A stretch of DNA of 47,213 nucleotides from NCBI GenBank assembly GCA_014384505.1, contig JACNFT010000055.1, positions 1-47,213 of the forward strand. The letters run 5' to 3'. Shown here one piece after another: positions 23,056 through 37,300 of this stretch (positions are counted from its first letter, which is position 1; every line of letters starts with the position of its first letter). Both the position numbers and the translations under genes were made by a program. The notes under the pieces were generated by a model. It had not been told where the DNA came from, did not search any database, and saw only the letters and a program-made list of their open reading frames with translations. This DNA comes from Cryomorphaceae bacterium. GTDB lineage: Bacteria > Bacteroidota > Bacteroidia > Flavobacteriales > BACL11.

Positions 23056-23072
23056 AAAATGAAAAAACAATT

Positions 23073-23110
23073 AAGGACTTGCTTATTTTTGCAAGTCCTT
23101 AATTGTTTTA
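23073..23110 (+). terminator. hairpin terminator after the HmuY-like gene
   Basis: aaggacttgc-ttattttt-gcaagtcctt (10-bp stem) followed by a T-rich stretch. Confidence 0.6.
23084..23091 (+). promoter_or_regulatory. possible -7 box TATTTTTG embedded in the terminator loop, upstream of 23124
   Basis: TAnnTTTG match 33 nt upstream of the ATG at 23124. Could be coincidental. Confidence 0.25.
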
Positions 23111-23123
23111 ATAAAATATTCTA

Positions 23124-23318: not shown

Positions 23319-23362
23319 CGGCTAAGAATTATTCTATTGCTATTTAAAAACACATAAATTAT

Positions 23363-23593
23363 ATGAAAGCTAAATTAGTATGGAGTTTTAGTGGGGAAGG
23401 CGCATTAAAAACTGCCGAACATCATCTTATACATTTAAAAGAGTATTCCGATAAAGAAAAAGTTCAGGTTATAGAATTCGGAACCCAGCAACAAACTGAA
23501 TTTACTGCAATCGCTTTTATTATTGTAACGAAAGACTTGGTAAACGACTTACGACAAAGTTTAAAGCCTCATCAAGGCTTTTTGGTGGAATAA
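23363..23593 (+). CDS. small soluble protein (hypothetical)
   Basis: 76 aa. No signal peptide and no recognised motif; alternating pattern suggests an alpha/beta fold. Confidence 0.4.
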   Translation: MKAKLVWSFSGEGALKTAEHHLIHLKEYSDKEKVQVIEFGTQQQTEFTAIAFIIVTKDLVNDLRQSLKPHQGFLVE

Positions 23594-23626
23594 TATAAAA
23601 ACCATTTTCTTTCGTATTTTCGCACC

Positions 23627-24070
23627 ATGTATTCGGCTATTCTTATATCACATATTGTTATTAGTATTCTGCTCATTTTATTGGCGATTTATATTGTAAT
23701 GCGTTCGCTTTTTGGGGTATTTGGGAAAGTTAATTTCTCTATATTTCATGATATAAAGTTACCAATTGTAGCAGTTATATTTTTGTATTTGGAGCTTATT
23801 CTAGGTGTTCTGCTTTATGCGATTTACATTAACAAACTGGAGATTTTAATCTCTCAGGTAAATGCTAATGCTTATTTTTCGGCTCGTTTTTGGGCAGTGG
23901 AACATGCTATTCTCATGTTATTTGCTATAATATTTGGGCATTTGGGTTTGGTATATGCTAAGAATTTGGAAGATGATAGGCAGAAGTTTAAAAAGAACTT
24001 TTTGTATTTTGGATTATCATTTGTACTTATTTTTATTTCAATCACAATGAATATGTTTCGAAATGCTTAA
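23627..24070 (+). CDS. 4-TM membrane protein with intramembrane histidines (hypothetical)
   Basis: 147 aa with four predicted TM helices. His in or near TM1 (SHIV) and twice in TM3 (VEHAI, FGHLG). Its 3' end overlaps the response-regulator start by 8 nt. Confidence 0.55.
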   Translation: MYSAILISHIVISILLILLAIYIVMRSLFGVFGKVNFSIFHDIKLPIVAVIFLYLELILGVLLYAIYINKLEILISQVNANAYFSARFWAVEHAILMLFAIIFGHLGLVYAKNLEDDRQKFKKNFLYFGLSFVLIFISITMNMFRNA

Positions 24071-24752
24071 AAAACATAATATACTAGTAGTTGAGGATGA
24101 ATTAGAATTAGCTAAATCAACTATTTCTTCTTTATCAGAAAATGGATTTTTACCTTTTCATGCTAAAGATTTAAATTCAGCCAGAAAATTATTGAAACAA
24201 GAAAAATTTGCTGCTGTACTTTTGGATTTAGGCTTGCCTGATGGAGATGGTATTTCTTTGATAAAAGAAATAAAAAACACTAAAATTGAAATTGGCTTGA
24301 TTATTGTTTCGGCCAAAGATGCTTTGGAAAAAAAAGTACAGGGTTTAGAATTAGGGGCGGATGATTATTTAACTAAACCTTTCTTTTTTTCAGAACTAAA
24401 TGCTCGTTTAAAATCAGTTATAAGAAGATTAAATTTAGAAGATAATCAGCAATTAACCATTAATGAAATTACTTTATTCCCTGAAGAAATGCGTACATTG
24501 ATTCATGGTGATATAGTTGAGCTAACGGGAAAAGAGTTTGGTTTGCTTTTATACTTTTTTTCTAATCCTAACAGAGTGATTTCTAAAACTACTTTAGGTG
24601 AGTTTATGTCATCAAGCTATGCTGACTATGGTTTTACTGATGATGTAGTCTATACACATATTAAAAACCTGAAAAAGAAAATTACAAATAGTGGTGGAGA
24701 TGATTATATCAAAAATGTTTATGGTGTAGGTTATAAATTTACTGTAGCATGA
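24063..24752 (+). CDS. OmpR/PhoB-family response regulator
   Basis: 229 aa. Receiver domain with VLLDLGLPDGDG and conserved Lys (TKP). Winged-helix C-terminus ...VYGVGYKF. Confidence 0.9.
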   Translation: MLKKHNILVVEDELELAKSTISSLSENGFLPFHAKDLNSARKLLKQEKFAAVLLDLGLPDGDGISLIKEIKNTKIEIGLIIVSAKDALEKKVQGLELGADDYLTKPFFFSELNARLKSVIRRLNLEDNQQLTINEITLFPEEMRTLIHGDIVELTGKEFGLLLYFFSNPNRVISKTTLGEFMSSSYADYGFTDDVVYTHIKNLKKKITNSGGDDYIKNVYGVGYKFTVA

Positions 24753-25987
24753 AATTATTAACGAAAACTTCTCTTAATTTTATTTCGGCTTCAGTTATTT
24801 TCTTCCTTCTTGGAAGTGTCGCTATGTATTTTTCAGTGCGTAACATCATAGCTGAGGATTTGCAAAACCGATTGTTACAACAGCAAAAGGATTTTTTTTA
24901 TACTGCTGATCAAAATAATCTTACTGACTTATCGTCCAAATTAGTATTTATTCAAATTACCGATAAAGAAATAATACATTCTTTTTCAGACACGGTCTTA
25001 ATCGTAAATGATTCCTATATTCTTTATCGAAAACTGCAATTTTCTTATTTGAAAGATGAACAATATTATAATGTAAGTATCTTGAAAAACCAAAGCCAAA
25101 GTGATTCATTGATCAAAAAAATAGTAATTATGAATGTTGGTTTTGCTATGCTCTTTTTCCTAATTATGTTTTTTGTGAATAGGCATTCTATTAAAAGTGC
25201 GCTTAGTGTTTTTTACAGTACCATCCGTAAGTTAGAAGATTTTGAACTTAGTAAATTACAAACACTAACCCTTGAAACTGCTGAGGTTCAGGAAATAAAA
25301 AAACTGAATGAAGTATTTGAGAAAATGGCCACTCAAATTTATAATGATTTTGAAGCCCAGAAAGAATATACTGAAAATGTATCACATGAATTGCAAACAC
25401 CTTTAGCAATTATAAGTTCCAAAGCAGATGAGCTAATGCAGGCAGATAATCTTTCCAAAGAACAGATGGAGCAATTGGAGCTACTTTTGGAAACGACCAA
25501 CCGACTATCTAAAATCAATCAGGCACTTATTTTCCTTACCAAAATTGACAACCGTTTTTATACCCAGGGATCATCCTTTTCGTTAAATGATTTAATTAAG
25601 GAAAAACTACAAATTTTTGAGACTGCAATTCAAGATAAAAATTTGAAGTTGGAACTAGATTTATTAGATATTACTCAAATTTATATGAATCCTTATTTGG
25701 CAGAAACCTTAATTATTAACCTTATTAAAAATGCAATTATACATAATTCAAATGGAGGTTTGTTGCGTATTCATTTAAGTAATAATATCTTGAGTATTTC
25801 TAATAGTGGCTCTCCACTTTCATTCCCTGAAAAGGATATCTTTAAAAGATTTACAAGAAGTGAGAATAGTAAAAAGAATCTTGGTATTGGGCTTTCAATT
25901 GTGCAAAGGATTTGTGAATTGTACACTTTCAAAATTGCTTATACTTATGCTAGTGTACATCAATTTAAAATAATTTTTAAAAAATAA
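24749..25987 (+). CDS. sensor histidine kinase (two TM, ~100-aa periplasmic loop)
   Basis: 412 aa. H-box SHELQTPL, N-box LIKNAIIHN, G-box GIGLSIV. 4-nt overlap with the regulator gene. Confidence 0.9.
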   Translation: MKLLTKTSLNFISASVIFFLLGSVAMYFSVRNIIAEDLQNRLLQQQKDFFYTADQNNLTDLSSKLVFIQITDKEIIHSFSDTVLIVNDSYILYRKLQFSYLKDEQYYNVSILKNQSQSDSLIKKIVIMNVGFAMLFFLIMFFVNRHSIKSALSVFYSTIRKLEDFELSKLQTLTLETAEVQEIKKLNEVFEKMATQIYNDFEAQKEYTENVSHELQTPLAIISSKADELMQADNLSKEQMEQLELLLETTNRLSKINQALIFLTKIDNRFYTQGSSFSLNDLIKEKLQIFETAIQDKNLKLELDLLDITQIYMNPYLAETLIINLIKNAIIHNSNGGLLRIHLSNNILSISNSGSPLSFPEKDIFKRFTRSENSKKNLGIGLSIVQRICELYTFKIAYTYASVHQFKIIFKK

Positions 25988-25990
25988 ATA

Positions 25991-26266
25991 ATGAATATAC
26001 TAGAATTAATTAACGACACAGCAACCACTATTGTTGATGTGAGAACAGAGATTGAATTTGAAGAAGGAAATGTAGAAGGGTCAATAAATATCCCTTTACA
26101 TAATATAATTGAAAAGGTTGAAGAATTAAAGGCAATGCAGCCTTTAGTTTTGTGTTGTCTTTCAGGAGGTAGAAGCGGACAAGCTACAGCCTTTTTACAA
26201 GCTCAGGGTTGTGATGATGTACATAATGGAGGGGGTTGGGAATTTGTAGATGCTCAAAAACGATAA
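25991..26266 (+). CDS. single-domain rhodanese (sulfurtransferase)
   Basis: 91 aa. Active-site loop CCLSGGRS (CxxGxR). Confidence 0.85.
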   Translation: MNILELINDTATTIVDVRTEIEFEEGNVEGSINIPLHNIIEKVEELKAMQPLVLCCLSGGRSGQATAFLQAQGCDDVHNGGGWEFVDAQKR

Positions 26267-26271
26267 TATCC

Positions 26272-27069
26272 TTGGAAACCTTTAATATATTAGGTGTTAT
26301 TGGAGCGCTAGTTATTGGCGTAGTTCTTGGTATAACAGGAGGTGGTGGTTCTATTTTAACAGTTCCTATTCTTGTTTACCTTTTAGGTGTTATGCCTATT
26401 ACTGCAACTGCTTATTCCTTATTTATTGTAGGAACAACTTCATTGTTTGGTACATTCCGTAATATAATGAAACGGATGATTGATTTTCGTGTTGCTTTTG
26501 TATTTTCAATTCCGGCATTTATTGCAGTTTATTTAACTCGCAAGCTGATTATCCCGTCAATACCTACTATTATTTTTACAGTTCAAGACTTTGTTTTAAC
26601 TAAGGATTTGGCTATAATGATTTTCTTTGCATTTATTATGTTTTTTGCTGGAATCTCTATGCTAAGATCAAGGAAGAGTATTAAGGTTAAACAAGTTAGT
26701 GAATTTAACTACTTTATTATAATTATTGAAGGTTTTGTAGTTGGAATTCTTACTGGCCTTGTAGGAGCAGGTGGAGGTTTCTTAATCATTCCTGCCTTAG
26801 TGTTATTTGCTAATTTACCAATGAAAAGGGCAGTAGCTACCTCCCTTATGATTATTTCCATAAAATCATTAATTGGCTTTTTAGGTGATATTGGAAATAT
26901 TGAAATTGATTGGGAGTTTCTGCTTATGTTTTCAATATTATCTATTATTGGAATTATTATTGGAATTTATCTTAGTAATTTTATAGACGGAAAAAAAATT
27001 AAAAAAGCTTTTGGTTGGTTTGTACTAGTCATGGCAATATATATCATAATTAAAGAAATACTATTTTAA
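26272..27069 (+). CDS. TauE/SafE family sulfite/anion exporter
   Basis: Multi-TM protein with duplicated G-rich motifs (GITGGGGSILTVP and GLVGAGGGFLIIPAL). The track ORF (TTG 26236) overlaps the rhodanese gene. The TTG at 26272, just after the rhodanese stop, is more plausible but uncertain. Confidence 0.8.
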   Translation: METFNILGVIGALVIGVVLGITGGGGSILTVPILVYLLGVMPITATAYSLFIVGTTSLFGTFRNIMKRMIDFRVAFVFSIPAFIAVYLTRKLIIPSIPTIIFTVQDFVLTKDLAIMIFFAFIMFFAGISMLRSRKSIKVKQVSEFNYFIIIIEGFVVGILTGLVGAGGGFLIIPALVLFANLPMKRAVATSLMIISIKSLIGFLGDIGNIEIDWEFLLMFSILSIIGIIIGIYLSNFIDGKKIKKAFGWFVLVMAIYIIIKEILF

Positions 27070-27070
27070 A

Positions 27071-28474
27071 ATGAAAGTAGAACAAATTTATACAAGCTGT
27101 TTAGCCCAGGGTGCTTATTACATTGAAAGTAATGGCCAGGCTGCTGTGATTGATCCTTTACGTGAAGTTGAGGCTTATATTGAAATGGCGGCAGAAAGAG
27201 GAGCTAAAATTAAATATGTTTTTGAAACACATTTTCATGCGGACTTTGTAAGTGGACACCTTAGCTTGGCAAAAAAAACAGGAGCTCAAATTGTATTTGG
27301 ACCTACAGCAAAAACTAATTTTGAAGCTGTTATTGCTGAGGATAATCAAGTATTTGAAATAGGAAATATAAGCATCAAAGTTTTGCATACACCAGGACAC
27401 ACTATGGAAAGTTCTTGCTACTTACTAAGTAATGAAAAGGGAGAAGATAAAGCTATTTTTTCAGGAGACACCTTGTTTTTAGGTGATGTAGGTCGCCCTG
27501 ATTTAGCACAAAAATCAGATATGACTGAGCAAGATTTAGCAGGAATTTTATTTGATAGCTTAAGAAAAAAAATAATACCTTTAGCGGATGATGTAATTGT
27601 TTATCCTGGGCATGGAGCTGGTTCGGCTTGTGGGAAAAATATGAGTAAGGAAACTGTAGGAACTATAGGGCATGAGAAAGCGAATAATTATGCTTTGCGT
27701 GTTGATATGACTAAGCAAGATTTTATAAATGAACTAATAGATGGAATTTTGCCTCCACCAGCTTATTTCTCAGAAAATGTAAGGTTAAATATTGAGGGAA
27801 CTTCTTCAGTTGATGTGGTTATTGAAAAAGCTTTTAAGCCCGTTTCAGTAGCGGATTTTAAAGAATTTTCAACAAAGAAAAATACAATTATTTTAGATGT
27901 ACGTCATCAAAAAGAATTTGTAAAAGGTTTTATTCCAAATTCTATTTTTATTGGAATTGATGGAGGTTTTGCTCCTTGGGCAGGGGCCATTATTAAAACT
28001 GTTGATACATCAATTTTATTGGTGTGTGATAAGGATAGGTTGCAAGAAACAGCTACTCGATTATCACGTGTAGGTTTTGATAATATACTTGGACATTTGC
28101 AGGGTGGTATTAATGCTTGGGATGTAAATGATTTAGACACTATGCAATCTATTTCATCTGAAAATTTTGCAAGCATTTATAAGAAAAATAATGCTATTCA
28201 TATTGTTGATGTACGTAAAGCGAGCGAATACAATAGTCAGCATATTAGCGGTGCTGAATTGGCTCCTTTAGGTAACTTGGATAAGCAGCACGATAAATTT
28301 ACTACAATAAATGAAAATTTTGTGCACTGTGCAGCAGGTTACCGATCAGTTATTGCTGGTTCATTGCTAAAAAAACAAGGAATTAACAACGTCATTAATG
28401 TTGAGGGAGGCTTTGCTGCTATTAAAGAAACAGCTATTCCTTTGTCTGATTTTATCTGTCCTACAACTTTATAA
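27071..28474 (+). CDS. MBL-fold persulfide-dioxygenase-like domain fused to two rhodanese domains (CstB-like architecture)
   Basis: 467 aa. Metallo-beta-lactamase motif THFHADFVSGH, HTPGHT, PGHGAGS. C-terminal rhodanese with active-site CAAGYRS; the middle rhodanese-like domain has CDKDR. Confidence 0.85.
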   Translation: MKVEQIYTSCLAQGAYYIESNGQAAVIDPLREVEAYIEMAAERGAKIKYVFETHFHADFVSGHLSLAKKTGAQIVFGPTAKTNFEAVIAEDNQVFEIGNISIKVLHTPGHTMESSCYLLSNEKGEDKAIFSGDTLFLGDVGRPDLAQKSDMTEQDLAGILFDSLRKKIIPLADDVIVYPGHGAGSACGKNMSKETVGTIGHEKANNYALRVDMTKQDFINELIDGILPPPAYFSENVRLNIEGTSSVDVVIEKAFKPVSVADFKEFSTKKNTIILDVRHQKEFVKGFIPNSIFIGIDGGFAPWAGAIIKTVDTSILLVCDKDRLQETATRLSRVGFDNILGHLQGGINAWDVNDLDTMQSISSENFASIYKKNNAIHIVDVRKASEYNSQHISGAELAPLGNLDKQHDKFTTINENFVHCAAGYRSVIAGSLLKKQGINNVINVEGGFAAIKETAIPLSDFICPTTL

Positions 28475-28477
28475 AAT

Positions 28478-29086
28478 ATGAGTAAGGAGCATTGGGAAAA
28501 TATATATGCAACTAAAGATATGCAAGAAGTAAGTTGGTTTCAAAAAGTTCCTACAACTTCTTTGGAATTAATTAATCAAGTTGCTGAAAATAAGCAGGAC
28601 GCAATTATTGATATTGGGGGTGGTGATGGATTTTTGGTTGATAATTTACTTGCATTAGGATATACTGATATTACAGTTTTAGATATTTCCAAAAATGCAA
28701 TTGATAGAGCAAAAAAACGATTAGGTAAGTTGGCTGAAAAAGTAAAATGGATAGTAGCTGACATTAATGAATTTGTTCCTAATAAAGAGTATGTCATTTG
28801 GCATGATAGAGCAGTGTTTCATTTCTTAACGGAGCAGCAAGACAAAGAAAATTATCGTATATTAGTAAATACAGCTGTTAGCGGTTATTTTATTTTAGCT
28901 ACTTTCTCAGATCAGGGGCCAGATAAGTGTAGTGGATTGGAAATTTGCAACTATGCTAAGCAGGATATTCAAGCTTTTTTTTCTTTTAATTTCAGAATGA
29001 TACGCTCCTTTAAATACAACCATCCAACCCCATTTGGTTTGTACCAGAATTTTATATTTTCAGTCTTTAGTAAGATGAACGAATAA
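28478..29086 (+). CDS. class I SAM-dependent methyltransferase
   Basis: 202 aa. HWENIY...VSWFQ N-terminus and SAM motif I IIDIGGGDG. 3-nt gap from the upstream gene. Confidence 0.8.
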   Translation: MSKEHWENIYATKDMQEVSWFQKVPTTSLELINQVAENKQDAIIDIGGGDGFLVDNLLALGYTDITVLDISKNAIDRAKKRLGKLAEKVKWIVADINEFVPNKEYVIWHDRAVFHFLTEQQDKENYRILVNTAVSGYFILATFSDQGPDKCSGLEICNYAKQDIQAFFSFNFRMIRSFKYNHPTPFGLYQNFIFSVFSKMNE

Positions 29087-29135
29087 GAATTCATTTTTTT
29101 TAGAAAATATTAGCTAATTAACACATAAATTATTA

Positions 29136-29143
29136 TATTTTTG
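29136..29143 (+). promoter_or_regulatory. -7 box TATTTTTG upstream of the T9SS-cargo gene
   Basis: TAnnTTTG match 27 nt upstream of the ATG at 29171. It overlaps the track's TTG start at 29141, which argues against that start. Confidence 0.45.
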
Positions 29144-29170
29144 TATACTAAATTAACTAAAAAAGTTATC

Positions 29171-31195
29171 ATGAATAAATTTTATTTCACAATAGGACTA
29201 TCAATATTATGCCTTTTTGCTTTTGCCCAATGTCCAACAGGGCAAACTGAAGTTACCATTGATGTAGGTACAGATAACTATGGATATGAAATTTATTGGG
29301 AATTAGCACCTACAGGAAGTAATTGTGGTAGTACAGCAATACTTTTTTCAGGTGGAAATTCTGCTGTTGGCTGTAATGCTAATAATGTAAATTCTGGAGG
29401 CTATTCTAGTAATACTGTAATTTATGAAGGTCCTTGGTGCTTAACGGATGGAGCTAGTTATGATATTATATCACGTGATGGTTATGGTGATGGAATGGCT
29501 AGTTTTGTGACTAATATTGGTTCCTGGCCTATGTATAATTTCTCTCATGGAAATTCTAATAATGAAACTTTTACTTTCTCTGTTGTCCCTCCTCCTGCAA
29601 TTGATGGTGCAATGCTAAACATTAAAACTCCTTCGTATATTTTAGTTGGTAATATTAATTTAGAAGCAAAAATTAAGAATTTGGGTTCTATGACTATTAA
29701 TTCTATAGATGTTAACTATACTATTAATGGGGGTGCTATTGTTAGTCAAAACTTATCAGGATTAAATATTTATGCGCTTACATCATATGATTTAACTCAT
29801 CCTACAGTTTGGACTCCTGCTACAACAGGAGCTTACTCTGTTGAATTATGGATTTCCAATATTAATGGACAAGGCGTAGATGCAGTGCCTTCTAATGATA
29901 ATTTGATAAAAACAATTAATGTTAAAGATCCTATTCCAAACATTATTCCATCTTATACTTCAGTTAATAATACTTTCACATATGATGTGATAGTGAACTC
30001 TAGTAATCAAATTAATCAGCCAAGAGATTTAGATTTTCATCCTAATGGAGATTTATGGATTATAAATACAGGCACTGAAAACTCAGGAGGTAGTACGGTA
30101 AAAGTGACAAATCCTGGAATGACTTCTCAAAACTCACTTTGGGAACAAGATGGAAATGCATGGCACTTTATGTCTTTACCTTCAGCAATTGCCTTTAGTG
30201 ATAATGGTAATTTTGCAACTTCAACTTCTGTCTTAGATGCCAATCATGGTGGAAATCAATTTACAGGTCCCACATTATGGTCGTCAGATCCTTTAATTTA
30301 TGCTAAAGATGCAGGTCCTGGAACTAATGGATCTCATTTAGATATGTTACATGCAAGTCCATACTCAATGGGAATTGCATCAGAAAAAGATAATGTTTTT
30401 TGGGTGTATGATGATTATAGTAATGATATAGTTCGTTATGATTTTGCAGAGGATCATGGTCCTGGTAATTCTGATCATGATGATGGAGAGTTAATAAGAT
30501 ATCAAGGAATGGGGCTTAGTGCAATTAATCATACTATTGTAAATCATTTAGTATTAGATGAAGATAAAAAGTGGTTATATTTTGTAGATGGAGGGAATCA
30601 AAGAGTATTACGATTAGATATTACGAATGGAACAGCTATTCCAGCACCATCTTCATTTTTACTGCAAGAAACTCTAGCTGAATATCAAAAGATGACTGGT
30701 TTTTCTTGGGAGGAAGTAGTAATAACAGGTTTAGTTCAGCCTGCAGGAATTGATATTATTGATAATAGCTTAGTGGTTACTGACCATAGTAATGGTGATA
30801 TTGTTTTTTATGATGTAAATACTATTCCTGCAACTGAAATTGGAAGAATACAAACTAATGAGCCAGGGATTATGGGTGCTGTAATAGGTCCTAATGGAAA
30901 GCTTTGGTATGCTAATGCAACTTTAAATAAGGTTGTTAAAATTGAGCCTTCAACTATTATATCAGATGTTGTAGAAAGTCAATTCGTTTTAAATGGAAAC
31001 CGTATTTTTCCCAATCCGGTTTCTAATACCCTACATTTTACAAAAAATGCTACATTTGCAGCTGTATTTGATATCAATGGTAAATTAATTTTATCAGCAA
31101 ACAATAATATAAAAGCTATTGATGTTAGTATGTTGAATGAAGGAGTTTACTTTATTGATGTAGATGGTGTCAAATCAAAATTTATAAAATATTAA
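29171..31195 (+). CDS. T9SS-secreted multidomain protein (Cys-containing GYGDG N-domain, Ig/CARDB-like module, propeller-like region, type-A sorting CTD)
   Basis: 674 aa from the ATG at 29171, with signal peptide MNKFYFTIGLSILCLFAFAQC. The C-terminus FPNPVSNTLHF...FDINGKLI...LNEGVYFIDVDGVKSKFIKY matches the T9SS (Por) C-terminal domain. Confidence 0.85.
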   Translation: MNKFYFTIGLSILCLFAFAQCPTGQTEVTIDVGTDNYGYEIYWELAPTGSNCGSTAILFSGGNSAVGCNANNVNSGGYSSNTVIYEGPWCLTDGASYDIISRDGYGDGMASFVTNIGSWPMYNFSHGNSNNETFTFSVVPPPAIDGAMLNIKTPSYILVGNINLEAKIKNLGSMTINSIDVNYTINGGAIVSQNLSGLNIYALTSYDLTHPTVWTPATTGAYSVELWISNINGQGVDAVPSNDNLIKTINVKDPIPNIIPSYTSVNNTFTYDVIVNSSNQINQPRDLDFHPNGDLWIINTGTENSGGSTVKVTNPGMTSQNSLWEQDGNAWHFMSLPSAIAFSDNGNFATSTSVLDANHGGNQFTGPTLWSSDPLIYAKDAGPGTNGSHLDMLHASPYSMGIASEKDNVFWVYDDYSNDIVRYDFAEDHGPGNSDHDDGELIRYQGMGLSAINHTIVNHLVLDEDKKWLYFVDGGNQRVLRLDITNGTAIPAPSSFLLQETLAEYQKMTGFSWEEVVITGLVQPAGIDIIDNSLVVTDHSNGDIVFYDVNTIPATEIGRIQTNEPGIMGAVIGPNGKLWYANATLNKVVKIEPSTIISDVVESQFVLNGNRIFPNPVSNTLHFTKNATFAAVFDINGKLILSANNNIKAIDVSMLNEGVYFIDVDGVKSKFIKY

Positions 31196-31196
31196 C

Positions 31197-31655
31197 ATGA
31201 AGTTGAAAGAAATATTCAAAGTAGTTTTTTCTATTGTGATGGCCGTATTTATACTGTCTGTTTCAATGGGAATGAATATTTCCAAAATGAATTGTGATGA
31301 AGATGGAAGTGTGTACCTAGGTATTGAAGTTCCTTCTTGTAGTGAGGAATATGAAGTGGTTTGTAATGAGGAACAAGAAAAAGTTTCGTGTTGTATGCTT
31401 GAGGTTGTAAAATCATGTTGCCCTGAAACTAATGATGAATCCTGCGCAAGTAGTACTCAGAATATTCATTATGATTTTGAAACTATATTAACTGTTTTTG
31501 AACATGATTTTTCAGCAAAAGCTAGTTTACTTTCTTTCTTCAATTCGTATGATAGTAAATCATATTTTGTAAAAGTTAATAATTATTTTAGTGGTATACC
31601 ACCACCTAAGCTGAACAAACCTGAATTATCTCAAATACAATCATTTTTACTATAG
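31197..31655 (+). CDS. HYC_CC_PP-like Cys-rich, N-terminally anchored membrane protein
   Basis: 152 aa with N-terminal TM. Paired Cys (VSCCMLE, KSCCPE) and C-terminal GIPPPKL...QSFLL. Resembles the Bacteroidota HYC_CC_PP family as I recall it (HYC is MNC here). Sits 1 nt after the upstream stop. Confidence 0.55.
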   Translation: MKLKEIFKVVFSIVMAVFILSVSMGMNISKMNCDEDGSVYLGIEVPSCSEEYEVVCNEEQEKVSCCMLEVVKSCCPETNDESCASSTQNIHYDFETILTVFEHDFSAKASLLSFFNSYDSKSYFVKVNNYFSGIPPPKLNKPELSQIQSFLL

Positions 31656-31699
31656 GATTAACTCTTGTTAACTAGAGTTTTAATTTTATAAAATAAAAA

Positions 31700-33910
31700 A
31701 TGAAAAAGATAATAATTATTGCAATAGTGCTTATTGCAAGTTTAAATACAAAAGCACAAAATCAAATAATAGGAAAGGTTGTTGAAATAATCAAGGATGG
31801 ATCAGAACTTCCAATTCCTGGAGCTAATGTGTATTGGGAAGGGACTACAACTGGTGCAGCTACTGAGGGGGATGGAAATTTCTCAATTGTTGAACCAACT
31901 TCATTTCCTGCAACTATAGTCGTGAGTTTTGTGGGCTATCAACAATATACTCAGCTGATAGAGGCTAATACTCAACTTCAGATATACCTTACTCCATCCC
32001 TTGAACTAAAAGAGGTAAAAGTAAAGGGGAAGGTAAATACAACTAAGTTCTCTACAGTTAACTCTATTAATATGCAAACCCTTTCAACTGGTGAGTTGGA
32101 AAAAGCAGCCTGTTGTAATCTCTCGGAAAGTTTCAGTACAAACGCTACTGTTGATGTTAATTTTACTGATGCTGTTTCGGGAGCTAAGAAAATTCAAATG
32201 TTAGGTTTGGATGGTGCTTATACGCAGATAACACAAGAAAACATGCCTTTAATAAGAGGGATTTCCTCTGCTTATGGTTTGAGTTATGTCCCAGGTACTT
32301 GGATAGAATCGATACAAATTATAAAAGGAAGTGGTTCAGTTGTGAATGGTTTTGAATCCTTTGCCGGTCAGATTAATTTGGAATATTATAAGCCAGAATC
32401 AGCTCCTAAATTATTTTGGAATGGCTATACGAATTCTGAAGGAAAATTAGAAAATAATTTGTTGTTTGCTAAAAAAGTAGGAGCTTGGAAAAGTAATCTG
32501 TTTACACATGTTTCTTATTTTGACGGAGAGCCAGACCACAATGAAGATATGTTTTTAGATGTGCCAAAAGTAAAGCAGGTAAATATGTTAAACAGATGGG
32601 ATTATAAGGGGGATGGGAGTTATCACATTTCATTAACTGCAAGAGGCTTAGTTGAGGATAGATTAGGAGGGACTATCGAAAATGCGATTAACCCCTATGA
32701 TGTTAATATTCATAATGACTTATTAGAGTTTACTTCAAAAACTGGAGCTATACAACCAAACTCTCCTGGTAAAAGTGCAGGTTTGCAAACTTCTTTCAGA
32801 AGGCATAATCAAACGGCTATTTTTGGAGAGAATAATTACAAAGGCTTACAGGAAAGTGCATACCTTAATCTTATCAGACAAACTTATATTGGAAGTACTA
32901 ACCATAAATTGAAATATGGAACAAGTTATTATGCGGATAGATATACCGAAAGTTTTTCAGGACATATTGATACTGCTTTTACCGATAACGTAAGAGTAGA
33001 TTTGATGACAGGTGTTTTTTCAGAGTATTCTTACAAATGGGGTGAAAGTTTTAATTTGACTGCTGGAATACGTGCAGATTATTACAATAATTCTGAAGAA
33101 ATAAATTATCTACCAAGGTTAAATATGAAATACAATCCAACAGAAAAAATGGCAATTCGTTTTTCAGCAGGAAAGGCTTTTCGTGTAGCTAATGTGTTTG
33201 TTGAAAATGCTTCTTTTTTAGCTTCTAATAGAGAAATTTCAGTTGGCAATTTAAATCCTGAAATAGCTTGGAATTATGGTGCGAACATTACGTATTGTTT
33301 TTATCTCTTTGGAAGAGAAGGTACTATTAATGCAGATGCCTATCGTACTGATTTTGAAAATCAAATTGTGGTTGATATTGAAAATCAAAATGAGTTATCG
33401 TTTTATAATTTAGAAGGAGATTCCTATGCAACTAGTATGCAATTGGATTTTGCTTATGAGTTGTTTGATCGCTTTGATATAAAGATGGCCTATAAGATAA
33501 ATGATGTGAAAAGCACCTATGATGATGAGGGAATTAAAGAATCTCCGCTTACTCCAAAAGATAGAGCATTATTAAATCTTTCTTATGCTACTAATTTTGA
33601 TAAATGGATGTTTGATGTTACGGCTAACTATGTAGGTGAGAGTAGGATTCCTAATCATAATTTAAATTCAGATCCATCTGTTTTGAATAATTTTTCAGAC
33701 CCATTTTACTTGTATAATACTCAAATAACCAAGAAATTTCGCAAATTTGATGTGTATGTTGGGGGGGAAAATTTACTAGGTTATGTCCAGAAAAATCCAA
33801 TATTAGGAACACCTATTCCAAATTCAGATACTGCTTTTGATGCTTCATTAATTTATGCGCCCATTAATGGTAGAATGATATATGCAGGATTTCGATTTAA
33901 AATTAAATAA
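31700..33910 (+). CDS. TonB-dependent receptor with N-terminal carboxypeptidase-regulatory-like domain
   Basis: 736 aa with signal peptide. CarboxypepD_reg signature GKVVE...PIPGANVYWEGTTTGAATEGDGNFSI; plug IQIIKGSGSVVNGFESFAGQINL; C-terminal YAGFRFKIK. Confidence 0.85.
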   Translation: MKKIIIIAIVLIASLNTKAQNQIIGKVVEIIKDGSELPIPGANVYWEGTTTGAATEGDGNFSIVEPTSFPATIVVSFVGYQQYTQLIEANTQLQIYLTPSLELKEVKVKGKVNTTKFSTVNSINMQTLSTGELEKAACCNLSESFSTNATVDVNFTDAVSGAKKIQMLGLDGAYTQITQENMPLIRGISSAYGLSYVPGTWIESIQIIKGSGSVVNGFESFAGQINLEYYKPESAPKLFWNGYTNSEGKLENNLLFAKKVGAWKSNLFTHVSYFDGEPDHNEDMFLDVPKVKQVNMLNRWDYKGDGSYHISLTARGLVEDRLGGTIENAINPYDVNIHNDLLEFTSKTGAIQPNSPGKSAGLQTSFRRHNQTAIFGENNYKGLQESAYLNLIRQTYIGSTNHKLKYGTSYYADRYTESFSGHIDTAFTDNVRVDLMTGVFSEYSYKWGESFNLTAGIRADYYNNSEEINYLPRLNMKYNPTEKMAIRFSAGKAFRVANVFVENASFLASNREISVGNLNPEIAWNYGANITYCFYLFGREGTINADAYRTDFENQIVVDIENQNELSFYNLEGDSYATSMQLDFAYELFDRFDIKMAYKINDVKSTYDDEGIKESPLTPKDRALLNLSYATNFDKWMFDVTANYVGESRIPNHNLNSDPSVLNNFSDPFYLYNTQITKKFRKFDVYVGGENLLGYVQKNPILGTPIPNSDTAFDASLIYAPINGRMIYAGFRFKIK

Positions 33911-33929
33911 TAATTAAATAAATAATAAC

Positions 33930-34301
33930 ATGAAAAAAATATTCATTGCCTTATTCAGCATTTTAACTATAAATGCTTGGGCACAAAAAGAAACAGTACA
34001 GATTAAAACTTCAGCAGAATGTGTTGCTAATTGTTGTAAAGATAGGATTGAAGAAGAAATGCAGTTTACAAAAGGAGTTACTGCAGTAAATTTGGATGTA
34101 GAAAGTCAAGTTTTAACGGTTACTTTTAAAACGAAAAAGAACTCAGTTGAGAATATTAGAAAAATTATTTCAAATCTTGGTTATAATGCTGATGATGTAA
34201 GGGCCAATGAGAGTGCTCATAATGCTTTGCCTAATTGCTGTCAAAGTCTTGATTTTACAAAGCCAAAAGTTAAAAAATTTCAATTGAAAAAGCCTGATTA
34301 A
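33930..34301 (+). CDS. periplasmic heavy-metal-associated (HMA) fold protein with variant Cys site
   Basis: 123 aa with signal peptide ...INAWA/QK. HMA beta-alpha-beta-beta-alpha-beta pattern (VQIKTS..C..RIEEEM...GVTAVNLD...VLTVTF...IRKIISNLGYNA). The metal site is ECVANCC rather than MxCxxC, with an extra LPNCCQS. Confidence 0.7.
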   Translation: MKKIFIALFSILTINAWAQKETVQIKTSAECVANCCKDRIEEEMQFTKGVTAVNLDVESQVLTVTFKTKKNSVENIRKIISNLGYNADDVRANESAHNALPNCCQSLDFTKPKVKKFQLKKPD

Positions 34302-34328
34302 TTTTTAAAGGAAGTTTTTTCAATCTTT

Positions 34329-37300
34329 TTACATCATTTTATTTATAATATCTATTGCTGATTCTGCAATTACTGTACCGGGGCCAAACACACCACTCAC
34401 TCCAGCATTGTATAGGTAATCATAATCTTGCTGGGGAATTACACCTCCTGCAATCACTAAAATATCATCACGACCATATTCTTTTAGAGCTGCAATTACT
34501 TGCGGAACTAATGTTTTGTGTCCTGCTGCTAATGAGGATATTCCTAGAATGTGAACATCATTTTCAACTGCTTGTTTAGCTGCTTCCTTTGGGGTTTGAA
34601 AAAGAGGTCCAACATCAACATCAAAACCTAAGTCAGCAAATGAAGTTGCTATTACTTTTGCTCCTCTATCGTGTCCGTCCTGTCCCATTTTGGCAATCAT
34701 AATTCTTGGTCGTCTTCCTTTCTTTATTGCAAACTCATCCGACAAGGCAAGGGCTTTTTTAAAGGTTTCGTTATTTTGTATTTCCATTTTATATACTCCT
34801 GAAATAGTTTGATTTTTTGCAATATATCTTCCGAACACTGTTTCCATAGCATCTGATATTTCTCCTAGTGTTGCTCTTTCTCTTGCTGCTATTACTGCCA
34901 GTTCCAATACGTTTCCTGTGTTGTTTTTACAAGCTAAAATTAGTGCATTTAAGGATGCTTTTACTTTTTCACTATCTCTGCTTGCTTTTATGCTATTGAG
35001 CCTTTCAATTTGTAATTTTCTAACAGAAGTATTGTCAACTTCCAATATTTCAAGTTCTTTATCTTCTTTGGTTAAGCGATTTGTATTTACACCAACAATA
35101 ATATCCTTTCCACTATCAATTCTTGCTTGTTTTCTTGCAGCAGCTTGTTCAATTCTCATCTTTGGAATTCCTGTCTCAATAGCTTTTGTCATACCACCAA
35201 GTTCTTCTATCTCCTGAATGTGTTTCCAAGATTTTTCAGCTATCTCCTGTGTTAATTTTTCAACATAGTAAGAGCCACCCCAAGGGTCAACTGTATTGCA
35301 AATTCCTGTTTCTTTCTGTAAATATATTTGAGTGTCTCTAGCAATTTTTGCTGAAAAATCTGTCGGTAGTGCAATAGCCTCATCTAAAGCATTGGTGTGT
35401 AAGCTCTGTGTTCCACCCATTACAGCTGCCATTGCTTCTATACATGTTCGGGTAATATTATTAAACGGATCTTGCTCTGTTAAGCTCCAGCCACTAGTTT
35501 GGCAATGTGTACGTAAGGCTAATGATTTCGGATTTTTTGGATTGAATTCTTTCACCATTTTTGCCCAAAGCATTCTTGCAGCTCTCATTTTAGCAATTTC
35601 CATAAAGTGATTCATTCCTATGCCCCAAAAGAAAGATAATCTTGGTGCGAATGTATCAATTTCCATTCCTGAAGCAATTCCTGTTTTTATATATTCTAAT
35701 CCATCAGCTAGAGTGTAAGCTAACTCAATATCAGCTGTTGCACCTGCCTCTTGCATGTGATAACCTGAAATAGAAATACTATTATATTTTGGCATATTAT
35801 TTGAAGTGTACTCAAAAATATCAGAGATAATACGCATAGAATGTTGTGGTGGATAGATATAGGTATTACGCACCATAAATTCTTTTAGAATGTCATTCTG
35901 TATGGTTCCTGAAAGTTTTTCTAAGGATACTCCCTGTTCCTGAGCAGCTACAATATAGAAGGCTAAAATGGGTAAAACGGCTCCATTCATAGTCATTGAA
36001 ACAGACATTTTATCCAGTGGAATCTGATTGAATAGAATCTTCATATCCTCAACAGAATCAATTGCAACTCCTGCCATACCTACATCACCAACTACTCTTT
36101 CATGGTCGGAATCATATCCTCTGTGAGTTGCTAAATCAAAAGCTACTGAAAGTCCTTTTTGACCAGCAGCTAAGTTTTTTCTGTAGAACTCATTGGATGC
36201 TTCTGCCGTTGAAAACCCTGCATATTGCCTTATTGTCCAAGGACGCATAACATACATAGTTGAATAAGGTCCTCTTAAACTTGGCGCTAATCCAGCAACA
36301 AAATTTAAGTGTTCAACTTCTTTAACATCTTGTTTTGTATATTGACTTTTAATTTCAATTTGCTCAGGGCTTATCCAAGTTAGCTTATTGTTAATTCCTT
36401 CTTTGTTCGTATTTTCTAAGTTATAATCTTTTAATAATTCATTTACTAAATAATCAATATAGTATGCACCCTTTGTTGGGTCGCTTACCTTATCCAAATA
36501 ACTTTCTTGCCTAAGTATAGTTTGCTGATTTCTTGCAATTCTTTCAGAAAACTCTGTTGGCATTTCAAAGCTATGATTGTAGGAATTAATCATAATTGCA
36601 TTGGCTCCCCCAAAAATTGCTGACATACATTCTGTAGTACTTCTAAGAATATTATTATAAGCATATTCTTGTTCTTTATTGCTAAGCGAGCTTGAAGCAA
36701 AAATAAATGGAGTAGTTCCTGTTTTTTCTTCCCAGAGTATTCTAAATGCTTTAAGTTTTGCAATCTCTAAAAAATAGTTACTACTTATTTCAAAATGAAA
36801 TTGGATATTTTTTATCGTATCAATTCCTTTTATAAAAGCAGTGTCAATTTCTTCTTTAGCCGTCTTTCCTTTAGCAAAAATGGTACTTAATAGAGTAGTG
36901 TCTTCTATTCCGTGAAAAGCACCTTTTACATTTTTTCCTTTTGAATATTCCTTCCATTGAGATATAAATTCAGCATCATAATCTTTAAAATCAATTCTGA
37001 TGTGTTCTATTTCAATGCCTTTTAGTAAAATCGCTAGTTTGTTTGGGTTAGTGAAACATAATCCACTTACATCATTTTGTAAAGCTTCTAATGCTCTTAT
37101 ATTTCCTTCTTTTGGGTTTTTTGCATTAATAAGCTGATAGCTTTCCCAATTGTCAGGAAAAGAACTATTGAAAACAGGAGTGTTGTCGTTAGCATGATAA
37201 ATAGGAAAAATCTCAATACCTTGAGCATCTGAAACTAATTTTTCATTATAATCAGCTCCTTTTAGGTCAGTTGTGATTTTCTCAATCCATTCCTTTTTTG

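What the first reader, a model, noticed from the sequence alone, without database searches (positions are those of the whole stretch)
29136..34301. Four-gene envelope module: T9SS cargo + HYC_CC_PP-like protein + TonB-dependent receptor + variant periplasmic HMA protein (candidate uncharacterised metal-capture/import system)
Seen in sequence: four plus-strand genes sit behind their own TAnnTTTG box (29136-29143), with 1-, 44- and 19-nt gaps between them.
(i) A 674-aa secreted protein. It has a Cys-containing N-domain (GYGDG motif), an Ig/CARDB-like module, a propeller-like central region and a canonical T9SS C-terminal sorting domain.
(ii) A 152-aa N-anchored protein with paired cysteines (SCC, SCCPE) and a C-terminal IPPPK...QSFLL. 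This is the pattern I associate with the Bacteroidota HYC_CC_PP family.
(iii) A 736-aa TonB-dependent receptor with a CarboxypepD_reg N-domain.
(iv) A 123-aa signal-peptide HMA-fold protein. Its canonical MxCxxC site is replaced by C-x3-CC (ECVANCC), and it carries a second CC pair (LPNCCQS).
Established knowledge: HMA domains bind soft metals, TonB-dependent receptors import scarce ligands, and T9SS CTDs direct secretion or surface attachment.
Inference: an extracellular or surface capture protein feeds a receptor, with thiol-rich periplasmic or inner-membrane handlers. To my knowledge no function has been shown experimentally for HYC_CC_PP/receptor/HMA triads. Linkage to a T9SS cargo would add an extracellular component.
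Basis: partly seen in the sequence, partly recalled or inferred. Interest (0 to 1): 0.7.

Follow-up and report, generated by a model that had tools for sequence, protein, structure and literature searches.

The report
Leader-controlled copper uptake operon, Bacteroidota
Four adjacent genes in a marine flavobacterium most likely form a copper-import unit: an outer-membrane receptor and a metal-binding partner, apparently switched by a small copper-sensing leader peptide, plus a secreted protein from a family that keeps turning up next to copper genes; none of this has been tested in this bacterial phylum.

Summary
The four plus-strand genes, their 1-, 44- and 19-nt gaps and all domain calls are confirmed.

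The interpretation needs revision on four points.
1. The conserved unit is three genes: a HYC_CC_PP-like gene, a TonB-dependent receptor with an invariant Cys-Cys in its plug, and a secreted HMA protein. This triad occurs across Bacteroidota.
2. The T9SS cargo sits directly upstream only in one marine Flavobacteriales subclade.
3. The cargo family (Ig plus six-bladed NHL propeller, invariant His/Met cluster) recurs in copper islands. Close relatives carry the same four-gene module next to MbnP/MbnH and T9SS multicopper oxidase genes. Copper is therefore the best-supported metal.
4. The 152-aa protein looks less like a metal handler than like a CutF/CruR-type copper-sensing leader peptide. It has an export anchor and Cys motifs. 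About 60 residues separate the last Cys-Cys from a PPP motif, and 15-17 residues follow to the C-terminus. The mature part is predicted to be disordered. Across the family it is usually the first gene in its operon.

No experimental work on this system was found. All function is inferred. I rate it a new variant of a known kind.

The parts
29136..29143 (+). Bacteroidota -7-type promoter box (TATTTTTG), 28 nt upstream of the cargo ATG
   Evidence: The sequence is shown. The motif occurs at chance frequency in the window. The box and its flanks (TTATATTTTTGTA) are conserved upstream of the cargo gene in L012, L013, L021, L037 and L038. In cargo-less relatives an equivalent box lies about 16 nt upstream of the HYC gene.
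29171..31195 (+). T9SS cargo, 674 aa. Layout: signal peptide (aa 1-19, cleaved before Gln), Cys-containing beta-sandwich N-domain (about aa 20-140, GYGDG), CARDB/Ig domain (about 145-255), six-bladed NHL propeller (about 265-600) with invariant His/Met residues, and a type A C-terminal sorting domain (aa 612-674, nt 31004-31192).
   Evidence: Family hits are. The AlphaFold model is and the Foldseek matches. Across 72 homologues H210, H332, M334, H389, D391, M392, H394, H429, H436 and H459 are invariant.
31197..31655 (+). 152-aa HYC_CC_PP-like protein, a candidate CutF/CruR-type copper-sensing leader peptide. Layout: N-in TM anchor (aa 3-23), eight clade-invariant Cys (33, 48, 56, 65, 66, 74, 75, 83), PPPK (aa 135-138), and the conserved tail KPELSQIQSFLL.
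   Evidence: Supporting calls: 4, 19, 29-31, 71, 93 and 99.
31599..31607 (+). CCA CCA CCT, the PPP codons (P135-P137), a candidate ribosome-stalling motif. It lies 15 residues before the C-terminus and 60 residues after the last Cys-Cys.
   Evidence: The sequence is. Spacing across the family: the PP motif is 15-17 aa from the C-terminus, and the last CC-to-PP distance has a median of 60.
31656..31685 (+). Conserved interrupted 10-bp stem-loop that starts on the first base after the HYC stop codon and ends 14 nt before the receptor ATG. Inner arms: AACTCT (31660-31665) and AGAGTT (31674-31679).
   Evidence: The fold is. In an 18-sequence alignment 87.6% of cells are paired, against 34-50% when the partners are slid. 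Five of 10 pairs show compensatory changes, and 0 of 500 shuffles reach the observed pairing or covariation score. HYC-to-next-gene spacers are more structured than control spacers.
31700..33910 (+). TonB-dependent receptor, 736 aa: CarboxypepD_reg-like N-terminal extension, plug and barrel. The plug carries the motif ELEKAACCNLSESF, conserved across the family (C138-C139, nt 32111-32116).
   Evidence: Supporting calls: 3, 24, 25, 50 and 51.
33930..34301 (+). Secreted (SPI signal peptide) HMA-fold protein, 123 aa. Variant site C31-x3-C35-C36, plus the conserved C-terminal LPNCC (C103-C104).
   Evidence: Supporting calls: 3, 4, 40 and 60.

Best explanation
This is a TonB-dependent uptake operon for copper (Cu(I)-type soft metal) of a kind found across Bacteroidota.

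**Shown here.**
- The conserved core is leader gene, receptor and HMA gene. It travels as a self-contained unit through unrelated neighbourhoods.
- Each of the three proteins carries conserved vicinal cysteines.

**Inferred: transport.** The receptor imports copper across the outer membrane. The soluble periplasmic HMA protein takes it over through its CxxC-type site and/or its LPxCC motif.

**Inferred: regulation.** The 152-aa protein is mainly a cis-acting regulator of the CutF/CruR kind.
- While it is being translated and exported, its Cys motifs emerge on the periplasmic side.
- About 60 residues later the ribosome reaches the PPP motif and the conserved C-terminal tail.
- Copper binding to the nascent chain would change ribosome dwell time near the end of the gene.
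- That would decide whether the stem-loop starting at the stop codon forms, and so set transcription or translation of the receptor and HMA genes.
- The direction of the response was not determined. For an importer, repression by copper is expected.

**Inferred: cargo.** The cargo is exported by the T9SS to the cell surface or the medium. It belongs to a copper-associated family with an invariant His/Met cluster. In this clade its gene lies between the promoter and the leader. It probably binds or processes extracellular copper for the receptor.
For: **The core triad.**
- Across 80 genome loci anchored on the receptor, most loci with enough flanking DNA carry HYC-receptor(-HMA), or HYC-HMA-receptor in Bacteroidales and other orders. 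Flanking genes there are unrelated.
- One locus has an HMA-receptor fusion.
- Small upstream genes in distant loci pass the HYC_CC_PP cutoff at 34-54 bits.

**Copper.**
- Close relatives L048, L106 and L108 (cargo 77-81% identical) carry Reeler(T9SS)-cargo-HYC-receptor-HMA next to MbnP/MbnH/MbnH and HYC-multicopper oxidase(T9SS).
- L004/L129 and L015/L017 have T9SS multicopper oxidases beside the module.
- Distant cargo homologues sit in copper islands L152, L161 and L164. These contain CusB/RND/OEP, a CopA-type ATPase, multicopper oxidase, MbnPH, DUF326, DUF305 and DUF3347.
- Copper genes flank 12 of 23 cargo loci, against 3 of 66 control loci.
- The nearest solved HMA relatives are CopA and ATP7B domains.

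**Leader role.**
- In CruR and CutF an export signal, a Cys motif, a conserved C-terminal Pro motif, fixed spacing, disorder, first position in copper operons and a downstream regulatory RNA element are shown to work together (PMC9426467; PMC9973294; bioRxiv 10.1101/2025.02.05.636593).
- HYC matches each: a TM helix with the rest at pLDDT 55-65; PP-to-end 15-17 aa and CC-to-PP about 60 aa; usually the first gene, with its own -7 box; a covarying stem-loop at the stop codon.
- Canonical HYC genes also head OEP/RND and multicopper oxidase operons. That fits a regulator better than a receptor-specific chaperone.
Against: - There is no experimental datum of any kind.
- The copper assignment rests on gene neighbourhood and on the general preference of HMA domains.
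- In most lineages the triad stands alone, with no copper gene nearby.
- HYC_CC_PP does not match Pfam DUF2946, so the leader analogy is architectural only.
- The PP motif lies 16 residues before the stop codon, not 3-10 as in CruR and CutF. A ribosome paused at PPP would therefore not touch the stem-loop.
- Of 151 family members, 37 have no PP in the last 35 residues.
- The stem-loop is short and AU-rich (about -5 kcal/mol for the inner helix). The aligned sequences are related, so the shuffle statistics overstate significance.
- In the window HYC is the second gene, not the first.
- The cargo adjacency is confined to one subclade and patchy within it, so a direct cargo-receptor hand-off is weakly supported.
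- No inner-membrane importer is encoded in the window.
Confidence: 0.5

Rival explanations
1. The 152-aa protein is a stable inner-membrane-anchored thiol chaperone. It receives metal from the HMA protein in a Mer-like relay (MerP to MerT), and has no regulatory role.
For: - Eight Cys residues are invariant in the clade.
- Vicinal Cys pairs occur in all three core proteins.
- The best NCBIfam hit of the HMA protein is MerP.
- In L048, L106 and L108 an HMA-fused polytopic membrane protein with a CAC motif follows the module. This suggests thiol-based onward transport.
Against: - The mature part is predicted to be unstructured.
- Spacer length and C-terminal tail are tightly conserved while the sequence between them is poorly conserved.
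- Canonical family members also head efflux and oxidase operons.
- A conserved stem-loop follows the stop codon.
- The MerP score of 38 bits is far below the 92.55 cutoff, and no merA or merR is present.
Confidence: 0.22
2. The module imports another thiophilic metal (Zn, Co, Ni or Cd) rather than copper.
For: - HMA domains also bind Zn, Cd and Co; ZntA domains are among the PDB hits.
- Most triads have no copper gene nearby.
- The CutF-like survey noted subgroups that are probably Ni/Co-specific (PMC9973294).
Against: - Every informative neighbourhood points to copper: multicopper oxidase, MbnPH, CopA, Cus-like RND, DUF326 and DUF3347.
- The Ni/Co CutF-like groups have His-only motifs, whereas this family is Cys-rich.
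- No Zur- or Nik-type genes are present.
Confidence: 0.13
3. The cargo does not feed the receptor. It belongs to a surface copper-detoxification or redox suite, together with T9SS multicopper oxidase, MbnP, Reeler and thioredoxin-like proteins. It is merely co-located or co-transcribed with the uptake genes.
For: - Homologues at 66% identity or less are not next to the triad. They are often next to efflux, oxidase or MbnPH genes.
- Adjacency to the triad is patchy.
Against: - A 1-nt junction with HYC is kept in three different upstream contexts: the window type, L038 and L048.
- The promoter box moves to the front of the cargo gene when the cargo is present.
- The four genes recur as a block at a second chromosomal site in genome OZ238992.1.
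Confidence: 0.3
4. The receptor imports a reduced sulfur compound or a metal-sulfide species. It would be functionally tied to the upstream rhodanese / TauE / persulfide-dioxygenase-rhodanese / methyltransferase genes.
For: - The sulfur cluster lies directly upstream on the same strand in many Flavobacteriales loci.
- A DsrE-like gene follows the receptor in another subclade.
- T9SS thioredoxin-like CGPC proteins follow the HMA gene in several loci.
Against: - The association is limited to related genomes that share one chromosomal position.
- It is absent from the triad in other orders.
- A conserved promoter box separates the sulfur genes from the module.
Confidence: 0.05

Closest known systems
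CruR (DUF2946)-BfrG-Bp2921 operon of Bordetella pertussis (PMC9426467)
   Same: - A small exported, Cys-bearing, poorly structured protein precedes a TonB-dependent transporter.
- It has a conserved C-terminal proline motif and a fixed Cys-to-Pro spacing.
- The family is found with MbnPH and AhpC_TSA genes.
- Copper is the ligand.
   Different: - There is no detectable sequence homology.
- The motifs are HYC/CC and PPP followed by a 16-residue tail, not CXXC and RAPP followed by 3 residues.
- The spacer is 44 nt with a stem-loop, not 162 nt with a Rho site.
- The partners here are an HMA protein and a T9SS cargo, not a PepSY_TM protein.
- The phylum is Bacteroidota.
CutF-CutO-CutG of Rhodobacter capsulatus, and the 'CutF-like proteins' survey (PMC9973294; bioRxiv 10.1101/2025.02.05.636593)
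   Same: - The leader has a signal peptide, a Cys motif and a C-terminal PPP stalling motif.
- A short spacer carries a stem-loop that controls the next gene.
- The survey found 19-40% of CutF-like proteins in Bacteroidota, with OEP/RND and TonB-like neighbours.
   Different: - CutF controls a multicopper oxidase and is induced by copper. Here the downstream gene is an importer.
- No Shine-Dalgarno sequence is expected to be shielded in Bacteroidota.
- No Bacteroidota member has been tested.
- Whether this particular family was in their list could not be checked.
OprC/NosA TonB-dependent copper transporters (TIGR01778)
   Same: An outer-membrane TonB-dependent receptor implicated in copper uptake, with cysteine in the plug region.
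   Different: - There is no TIGR01778 hit.
- The receptor has an N-terminal CarboxypepD_reg domain.
- The Cys-Cys lies at the start of the plug in ELEKAACC, not in a CxxxM-HxM site.
MerP/MerT, and CopZ/CopA HMA relays
   Same: A secreted HMA protein with a CxxC-type site, and vicinal cysteines in partner proteins.
   Different: - MerP and CopZ scores are far below their cutoffs.
- No MerA, MerR or P-type ATPase is encoded in the window.
- The window's site is C-x3-CC.
Surface-binding protein plus TonB-dependent receptor pairs in Bacteroidota (SusD/SusC, HmuY/HmuR), and the T9SS cargo HBP35
   Same: An exported or surface protein encoded next to a receptor that has a SusC-like N-terminal extension. 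The Foldseek hits include Ig plus NHL 'auxiliary nutrient binding proteins' of polysaccharide utilisation loci.
   Different: - The cargo is T9SS-sorted, not a lipoprotein.
- The receptor is not a SusC/RagA member (61 bits against a cutoff of 368).
- The comparison with HBP35 rests on my own knowledge and was not tested.

Membership tests
HYC_CC_PP (NCBIfam NF047658) | Score at or above the curated cutoff (28 bits) | tested here: not met
   The score is 24.7 bits, E = 2.6e-5. Relatives reached by profile search do pass: 19 of 34 hit the model, the best at 1.9e-19. Canonical neighbours score 34-54 bits.
HYC_CC_PP (NCBIfam NF047658) | The name-giving motifs after an N-terminal TM segment: H-Y-C, C-C and P-P | tested here: inconclusive
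   CC (C65-C66 and C74-C75), PPP (135-137) and the TM segment (3-23) are present. HYC is replaced by K-M-N-C, so there is no His. The motif definition is inferred from the family name and from the alignment.
CruR/CutF family (Pfam DUF2946) | Sequence match to DUF2946 | tested here: not met
   None of 34 family members gave a DUF2946 hit at E <= 1.
CruR/CutF family (Pfam DUF2946) | Architecture: export signal, Cys motif, C-terminal Pro motif, conserved spacing, and a short protein at the head of a copper operon with a regulatory spacer | tested here: met
   Supporting calls: 71, 93, 99, 98 and 67-69. Two caveats apply. In the window the gene is second, after the cargo. The PP motif is 16 residues from the C-terminus.
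CruR/CutF family (Pfam DUF2946) | Copper-dependent ribosome stalling that controls the downstream gene | not testable with these tools
   This needs toeprinting or ribosome profiling, and reporter fusions.
T9SS type A cargo | C-terminal sorting domain (TIGR04183 / PF18962) above cutoff, plus an N-terminal signal peptide | tested here: met
   The scores are 31.8 bits (cutoff 23) and 40.5 bits (cutoff 27). The signal peptide ends ...FAFA|QC.
TonB-dependent receptor | Plug (PF07715) and barrel (PF00593) above cutoff | tested here: met
   The scores are 32.3 and 92.1 bits.
OprC/NosA copper receptor (TIGR01778) | Match to the family model | tested here: not met
   The model is not among the NCBIfam hits at E <= 0.1.
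SusC/RagA (TIGR04056) | Score at or above 368 bits | tested here: not met
   The score is 61.2 bits, covering the N-terminal 180 residues only.
HMA domain (PF00403) | Domain score above cutoff | tested here: met
   The score is 33.3 bits (cutoff 24.8).
HMA domain (PF00403) | Canonical GMxCxxC metal site | tested here: not met
   The window has E-C-V-A-N-C-C, that is C-x3-CC. The wider triad family keeps C-x-M-C.
MerP (TIGR02052) / CopZ | Equivalog cutoff | tested here: not met
   MerP scores 38.3 bits against 92.55. CopZ models score 23-28 bits against 91-95.

The most novel reading that the evidence does not exclude
Bacteroidota may run an extracellular copper-handling suite exported by the type IX secretion system. 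Its candidate members are the His/Met propeller cargo, MbnP-CTD, multicopper oxidase-CTD, Reeler-CTD and thioredoxin-like CGPC-CTD proteins. This suite would feed a dedicated Cys-Cys-plug TonB-dependent receptor and its HMA partner. The whole would be governed by HYC_CC_PP, an arrest-peptide copper sensor with no detectable sequence similarity to DUF2946 that acts through a stem-loop at its stop codon.
Probability: 0.3. Interest if true: 0.8.

Novelty: new variant of a known kind. Interest (0 to 1): 0.62.

Why it matters
I found no study of how Bacteroidota acquire and sense copper. They include abundant marine flavobacteria living where copper is scarce and tightly bound to organic ligands.

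If this reading is right, it offers four things:
- a phylum-wide candidate copper importer;
- a compact regulatory element that can be tested directly (leader peptide plus stem-loop);
- a functional assignment for the HYC_CC_PP family;
- a first functional context (copper) for a large family of T9SS cargo proteins.

It would also extend the CutF/CruR principle of metal sensing by a nascent exported peptide to a second phylum, with unrelated sequence. That would argue either for convergence or for very old common ancestry.

Tried and rejected
- **Riboswitch or other known RNA.** Rfam at gathering threshold found nothing in the window. A cobalamin riboswitch was suspected because methylmalonyl-CoA mutase lies next door.
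- **Sigma-70 promoter and intrinsic-terminator scans.** They were uninformative: counts were at or below shuffle expectation, and no terminator was found at either end of the module.
- **PDB sequence searches.** The cargo gave nothing as a single sequence; its profile hit only sorting domains and designed propellers. The receptor hit only N-terminal-extension domains and Cir.
- **Foldseek on the cargo.** It gave generic Ig plus NHL propellers, with no enzyme or metalloprotein assignment.
- **HYC structure.** The model's confidence was too low for a fold search.
- **Neighbourhoods of the triad in distant orders.** They hold unrelated housekeeping genes and give no extra clue to the ligand.
- **Small T9SS neighbours as cargo relatives.** The T9SS proteins of 216-261 aa next to the triad in relatives share only the sorting domain with the cargo. 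They are not related to its N-domain.
- **Literature.** Searches for HYC_CC_PP, for TonB plus HMA in Bacteroidetes or Flavobacteria, and for T9SS plus copper found nothing specific.
- **Supplement of PMC9973294.** The held text contains no list of Bacteroidota members.
- **Hairpin as a classical intrinsic terminator.** The T-run after it is not conserved in relatives, so this was not adopted.


Full report
**1. Observation**

- cargo, ATG 29171 to 31195 (674 aa);
- HYC_CC_PP-like gene, 31197-31655 (152 aa);
- receptor, 31700-33910 (736 aa);
- HMA protein, 33930-34301 (123 aa).

The gaps are 1, 44 and 19 nt.

Family scans confirm each call.
- The cargo has a T9SS type A sorting domain above cutoff, a near-threshold CARDB hit and weak NHL/SGL hits.
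- The receptor has CarbopepD_reg_2, Plug and barrel domains.
- The last protein is an HMA domain.
- The 152-aa protein scores 24.7 bits against NCBIfam HYC_CC_PP, under the cutoff of 28.

An exhaustive profile search found 112 cluster representatives of the 152-aa family. The distant ones carry H-[YH]-C where the window has K-M-N-C. Nineteen of 34 sampled relatives hit the HYC_CC_PP model, the best at 1.9e-19. The window protein therefore belongs to a divergent subfamily of that family.

The organism is an uncultured marine member of the Flavobacteriales, close to 'Cryomorphaceae bacterium BACL11'.

**2. What is conserved**

I scanned one genome per species with a receptor alignment. This gave 80 loci with 29-89% receptor identity. 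I then called ORFs and searched them with profiles built here.

The recurring unit is three genes.
- In Flavobacteriales the order is HYC-receptor-HMA.
- In Bacteroidales, Chitinophagales and others it is HYC-HMA-receptor.
- In those orders the small upstream genes read HYCHG...CC...PPP, and those scanned pass the HYC_CC_PP cutoff.
- In L060 the HMA domain is fused to the front of the receptor.
- Outside Flavobacteriales the flanking genes are unrelated housekeeping genes. The triad is self-contained.

All three proteins carry conserved vicinal cysteines.
- HYC has SCC and SCCPE.
- The receptor plug has ELEKAACC[NDE]L, conserved even in 30%-identical receptors that lack the partner genes.
- The HMA protein has a C-terminal LPxCC in addition to its CxxC-type site.
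- The window's clade has the variant C-x3-CC. The wider family keeps C-x-M-C.

**3. The T9SS cargo**

A full-length cargo gene lies directly upstream of HYC only in one Flavobacteriales subclade, and patchily within it.

A metagenome scan with the cargo alignment gave the following.
- Homologues at 71% identity or more are nearly always followed by HYC-receptor when the contig continues.
- Homologues at 66% identity or less are not.

Within the subclade the linkage looks functional.
- The 1-nt cargo/HYC junction is kept in three different upstream contexts: the window type, L038 and L048.
- Genome OZ238992.1 has two triads. Only the one at a second chromosomal site (L048) carries the cargo and the HMA gene.
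- The conserved TAnnTTTG box sits upstream of the cargo gene when the cargo is present. It sits about 16 nt upstream of HYC when the cargo is absent.
- Where other T9SS genes precede the cargo (L004, L048), no box lies directly before it.
- The box motif itself occurs at chance frequency in the window. Only its conserved position counts as evidence.

The AlphaFold model of the cargo (pLDDT 81.7) shows a beta-sandwich N-domain, an Ig domain, a six-bladed NHL propeller and the sorting domain. Foldseek finds only generic Ig plus NHL proteins.

Across 72 homologues (43-100% identity) these residues are invariant: H210, H332, M334, H389, D391, M392, H394, H429, H436 and H459. Such a His/Met pattern is typical of extracytoplasmic copper sites. 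That is an inference. I could not inspect the coordinates.

**4. Which metal**

Context points to copper in several independent ways.
- L048, L106 and L108 (cargo 77-81% identical to the window's) carry HYC-multicopper oxidase(T9SS), MbnH-MbnH-MbnP on the other strand, and then Reeler(T9SS)-cargo-HYC-receptor-HMA. An HMA-fused membrane protein follows.
- L004/L129, L015 and L017 have T9SS multicopper oxidases beside the module.
- L152 holds a distant cargo homologue among DUF326, DUF4396, HYC, a triad-type HMA, T9SS AhpC-like, T9SS multicopper oxidase, MbnP, HYC, OEP and CusB-like genes.
- L161 holds HYC, MbnP(T9SS), MbnH, cargo, HYC, RND, OEP and a CopA-type ATPase.
- L164 holds DUF3347, cargo, DUF305, an HYC-like gene, two DUF3347 genes and an HMBD-multicopper oxidase (canonical HYC genes confirmed).

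Among cargo loci of at least 8.5 kb that are not next to the triad, 12 of 23 carry at least one such copper gene. Among receptor-anchored control loci the figure is 3 of 66.

The closest solved relatives of the HMA protein are CopA and ATP7B metal-binding domains. The receptor is not an OprC/NosA family member.

**5. The 152-aa protein as a leader peptide**

Two experimentally characterised proteobacterial systems match its anatomy.

*CruR.* This DUF2946 protein heads a copper-repressed TonB-dependent transporter operon.
- It has an export signal and a CXXC motif, which in CruR senses copper.
- It has a RAPP arrest motif near the C-terminus and a fixed Cys-to-Pro spacing.
- It is predicted to be poorly structured.
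- The family is 'systematically' the first gene of copper operons, which include MbnPH and AhpC_TSA genes (PMC9426467).

*CutF.* This protein senses periplasmic copper during co-translational export.
- It stalls at a C-terminal PPP motif and opens a stem-loop that shields the next gene's ribosome-binding site (PMC9973294; bioRxiv 10.1101/2025.02.05.636593).
- The accompanying survey defined CutF-like proteins as shorter than 150 aa, with a signal peptide and a PP motif near the C-terminus.
- It found 19-40% of them in Bacteroidota, most often upstream of OEP/RND and TonB-like genes (PMC9973294).

*HYC_CC_PP.* It shows the same set of features.
- It has an N-in TM helix at residues 3-23 and a short hairpin. 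The remainder is at pLDDT 55-65.
- It has conserved Cys motifs.
- The PP motif lies 15-17 residues from the C-terminus (median 16). The last CC-to-PP distance has a median of 60, interquartile range 57-61. The sequence in between is poorly conserved.
- It has a conserved hydrophobic C-terminal tail.
- In cargo-less loci it usually stands at the head of the module, and 30 of 49 such loci have a TAnnTTTG box within 80 nt upstream.
- It occurs upstream of receptors, of OEP/RND operons and of multicopper oxidases alike.

An interrupted 10-bp stem-loop begins on the first base after the HYC stop codon (window 31656-31685) and ends 14 nt before the receptor ATG.
- In 18 Flavobacteriales sequences 87.6% of cells pair, against 34-50% when the partners are slid.
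- Five of 10 pairs show compensatory changes.
- None of 500 shuffles reaches the observed pairing or covariation score.
- More distant lineages have hairpins of unrelated sequence at the same place.
- Non-redundant HYC-to-next-gene spacers are more structured than control same-strand spacers from the same loci: median z -1.57 against -0.35, Mann-Whitney p = 3e-7. Relatedness of the sequences inflates this.

A ribosome sitting at or near the HYC stop codon would cover the 5' arm of the stem-loop. A spacing of about 60 residues is roughly what is needed to span the ribosome tunnel plus the translocon. Both points are inference.

Caveats on the leader model:
- There is no Pfam DUF2946 match.
- The PPP motif is farther from the stop codon than in CruR or CutF.
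- About a quarter of family members lack PP.
- In the window HYC is the second gene.

**6. Mechanism proposed**

*Shown:* gene order, conservation, motifs, spacing, RNA covariation and neighbourhood enrichment.

*Inferred:*
- Transcription starts after the -7 box.
- The cargo is made and exported by the T9SS.
- Translation and export of HYC report periplasmic copper and set expression of the receptor and HMA genes through the stem-loop.
- The receptor imports copper, and the HMA protein accepts it in the periplasm.
- No inner-membrane importer is encoded here. This is compatible with periplasmic use of copper, or with a transporter encoded elsewhere, such as the HMA-fused membrane protein in L048.

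My rough probabilities:

| Claim | Probability |
|---|---|
| The triad is one functional unit | 0.95 |
| The ligand is copper | 0.65 |
| HYC acts mainly as a cis regulator | 0.55 |
| The cargo family is copper-related | 0.75 |
| The cargo feeds the receptor directly | 0.35 |

**7. Novelty and verdict**

I found no experimental work on this triad, on HYC_CC_PP or on the cargo family.

The regulatory principle, and the broad statement that CutF-like genes precede TonB-like genes in Bacteroidota, are already published (PMC9973294).

The following appear to be new:
- the specific HYC_CC_PP / Cys-Cys-plug receptor / HMA module;
- its stop-codon stem-loop;
- the T9SS-exported set of genes that recur in copper neighbourhoods.

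All function is inferred. My rating is a new variant of a known kind, of moderate to high interest.

Noticed in passing
window 19769-23055 (+): A second TonB-dependent receptor (691 aa, Plug plus barrel, no N-terminal extension) is followed by a 170-aa ORF and an HmuY-like protein (PF14064). This is probably a haem-uptake HmuR/HmuY pair.
   Followed up: partly
window 23363-29086 (+): A same-strand run of genes lies directly upstream of the module: two small ORFs, an OmpR-type response regulator, a histidine kinase, a rhodanese, a TauE/SafE exporter, a metallo-beta-lactamase-rhodanese fusion (persulfide-dioxygenase-like) and a SAM methyltransferase. The run is conserved, with variations, in related Flavobacteriales. 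Whether it is functionally tied to the copper module is open.
   Followed up: partly
window 18495-34329; loci L011-L090: The stretch between the class-III aminotransferase gene and the convergent methylmalonyl-CoA mutase gene is a variable slot in this Flavobacteriales group. Different genomes hold different combinations of the sulfur genes, cargo, T9SS genes and HMA gene around a constant HYC-receptor pair.
   Followed up: yes
L014, L016, L019, L022, L038, L074, L113, L120 (downstream of the HMA gene): A T9SS-sorted protein of about 260 aa follows the HMA gene in many relatives. It has a thioredoxin-type motif (VMPCGPC), and its L152 homologue has a sub-threshold AhpC/TSA match. In L014, L016, L019 and L038 a predicted outer-membrane barrel comes next, whose mature N-terminus reads QGCCSGG.
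   Followed up: partly
L060:7146-10157: An apparent single ORF of 1003 aa fuses an HMA domain to the CarboxypepD_reg domain and barrel of the receptor. This is independent support for a functional link between HMA and receptor. An assembly or frame artefact is not excluded.
   Followed up: partly
L048:10588-11325, and the equivalent genes in L106 and L108: A 245-aa protein follows the HMA gene in the copper-island version of the module. It has a canonical GMTCGSC HMA domain fused to about four TM helices that carry a CAC motif. It is a candidate inner-membrane partner and is missing from the window.
   Followed up: no
L030-L034, L041-L045, L049, L053, L059, L066 (downstream of the receptor or HMA gene): In another Flavobacteriales subclade a DsrE/DsrF-like gene of about 106 aa follows the receptor or HMA gene.
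   Followed up: no
L136, L138, L140, L142 (with P0209-P0229): Shorter cargo variants of about 430-455 aa match only the propeller and the sorting domain (query residues about 252-673). They lack the N-domain and the Ig domain, and still sit directly upstream of HYC.
   Followed up: no
cargo-less loci, about 16 nt upstream of the HYC ATG: The TAnnTTTG box sits at a fixed position, starting 16-17 nt before the HYC start codon, in about 18 loci. This implies a very short or absent 5' leader on the HYC mRNA.
   Followed up: no
L007, L048, L106, L108, L135, L159, L163: Reeler-domain proteins (T9SS-sorted where checked, in L007 and L048) recur next to cargo homologues. I found no bacterial function described for this domain.
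   Followed up: no
window 38849-40279 (-): By synteny with the annotated relatives L001 and L004 this ORF is dnaA. The module therefore lies about 5 kb from the dnaA gene.
   Followed up: no
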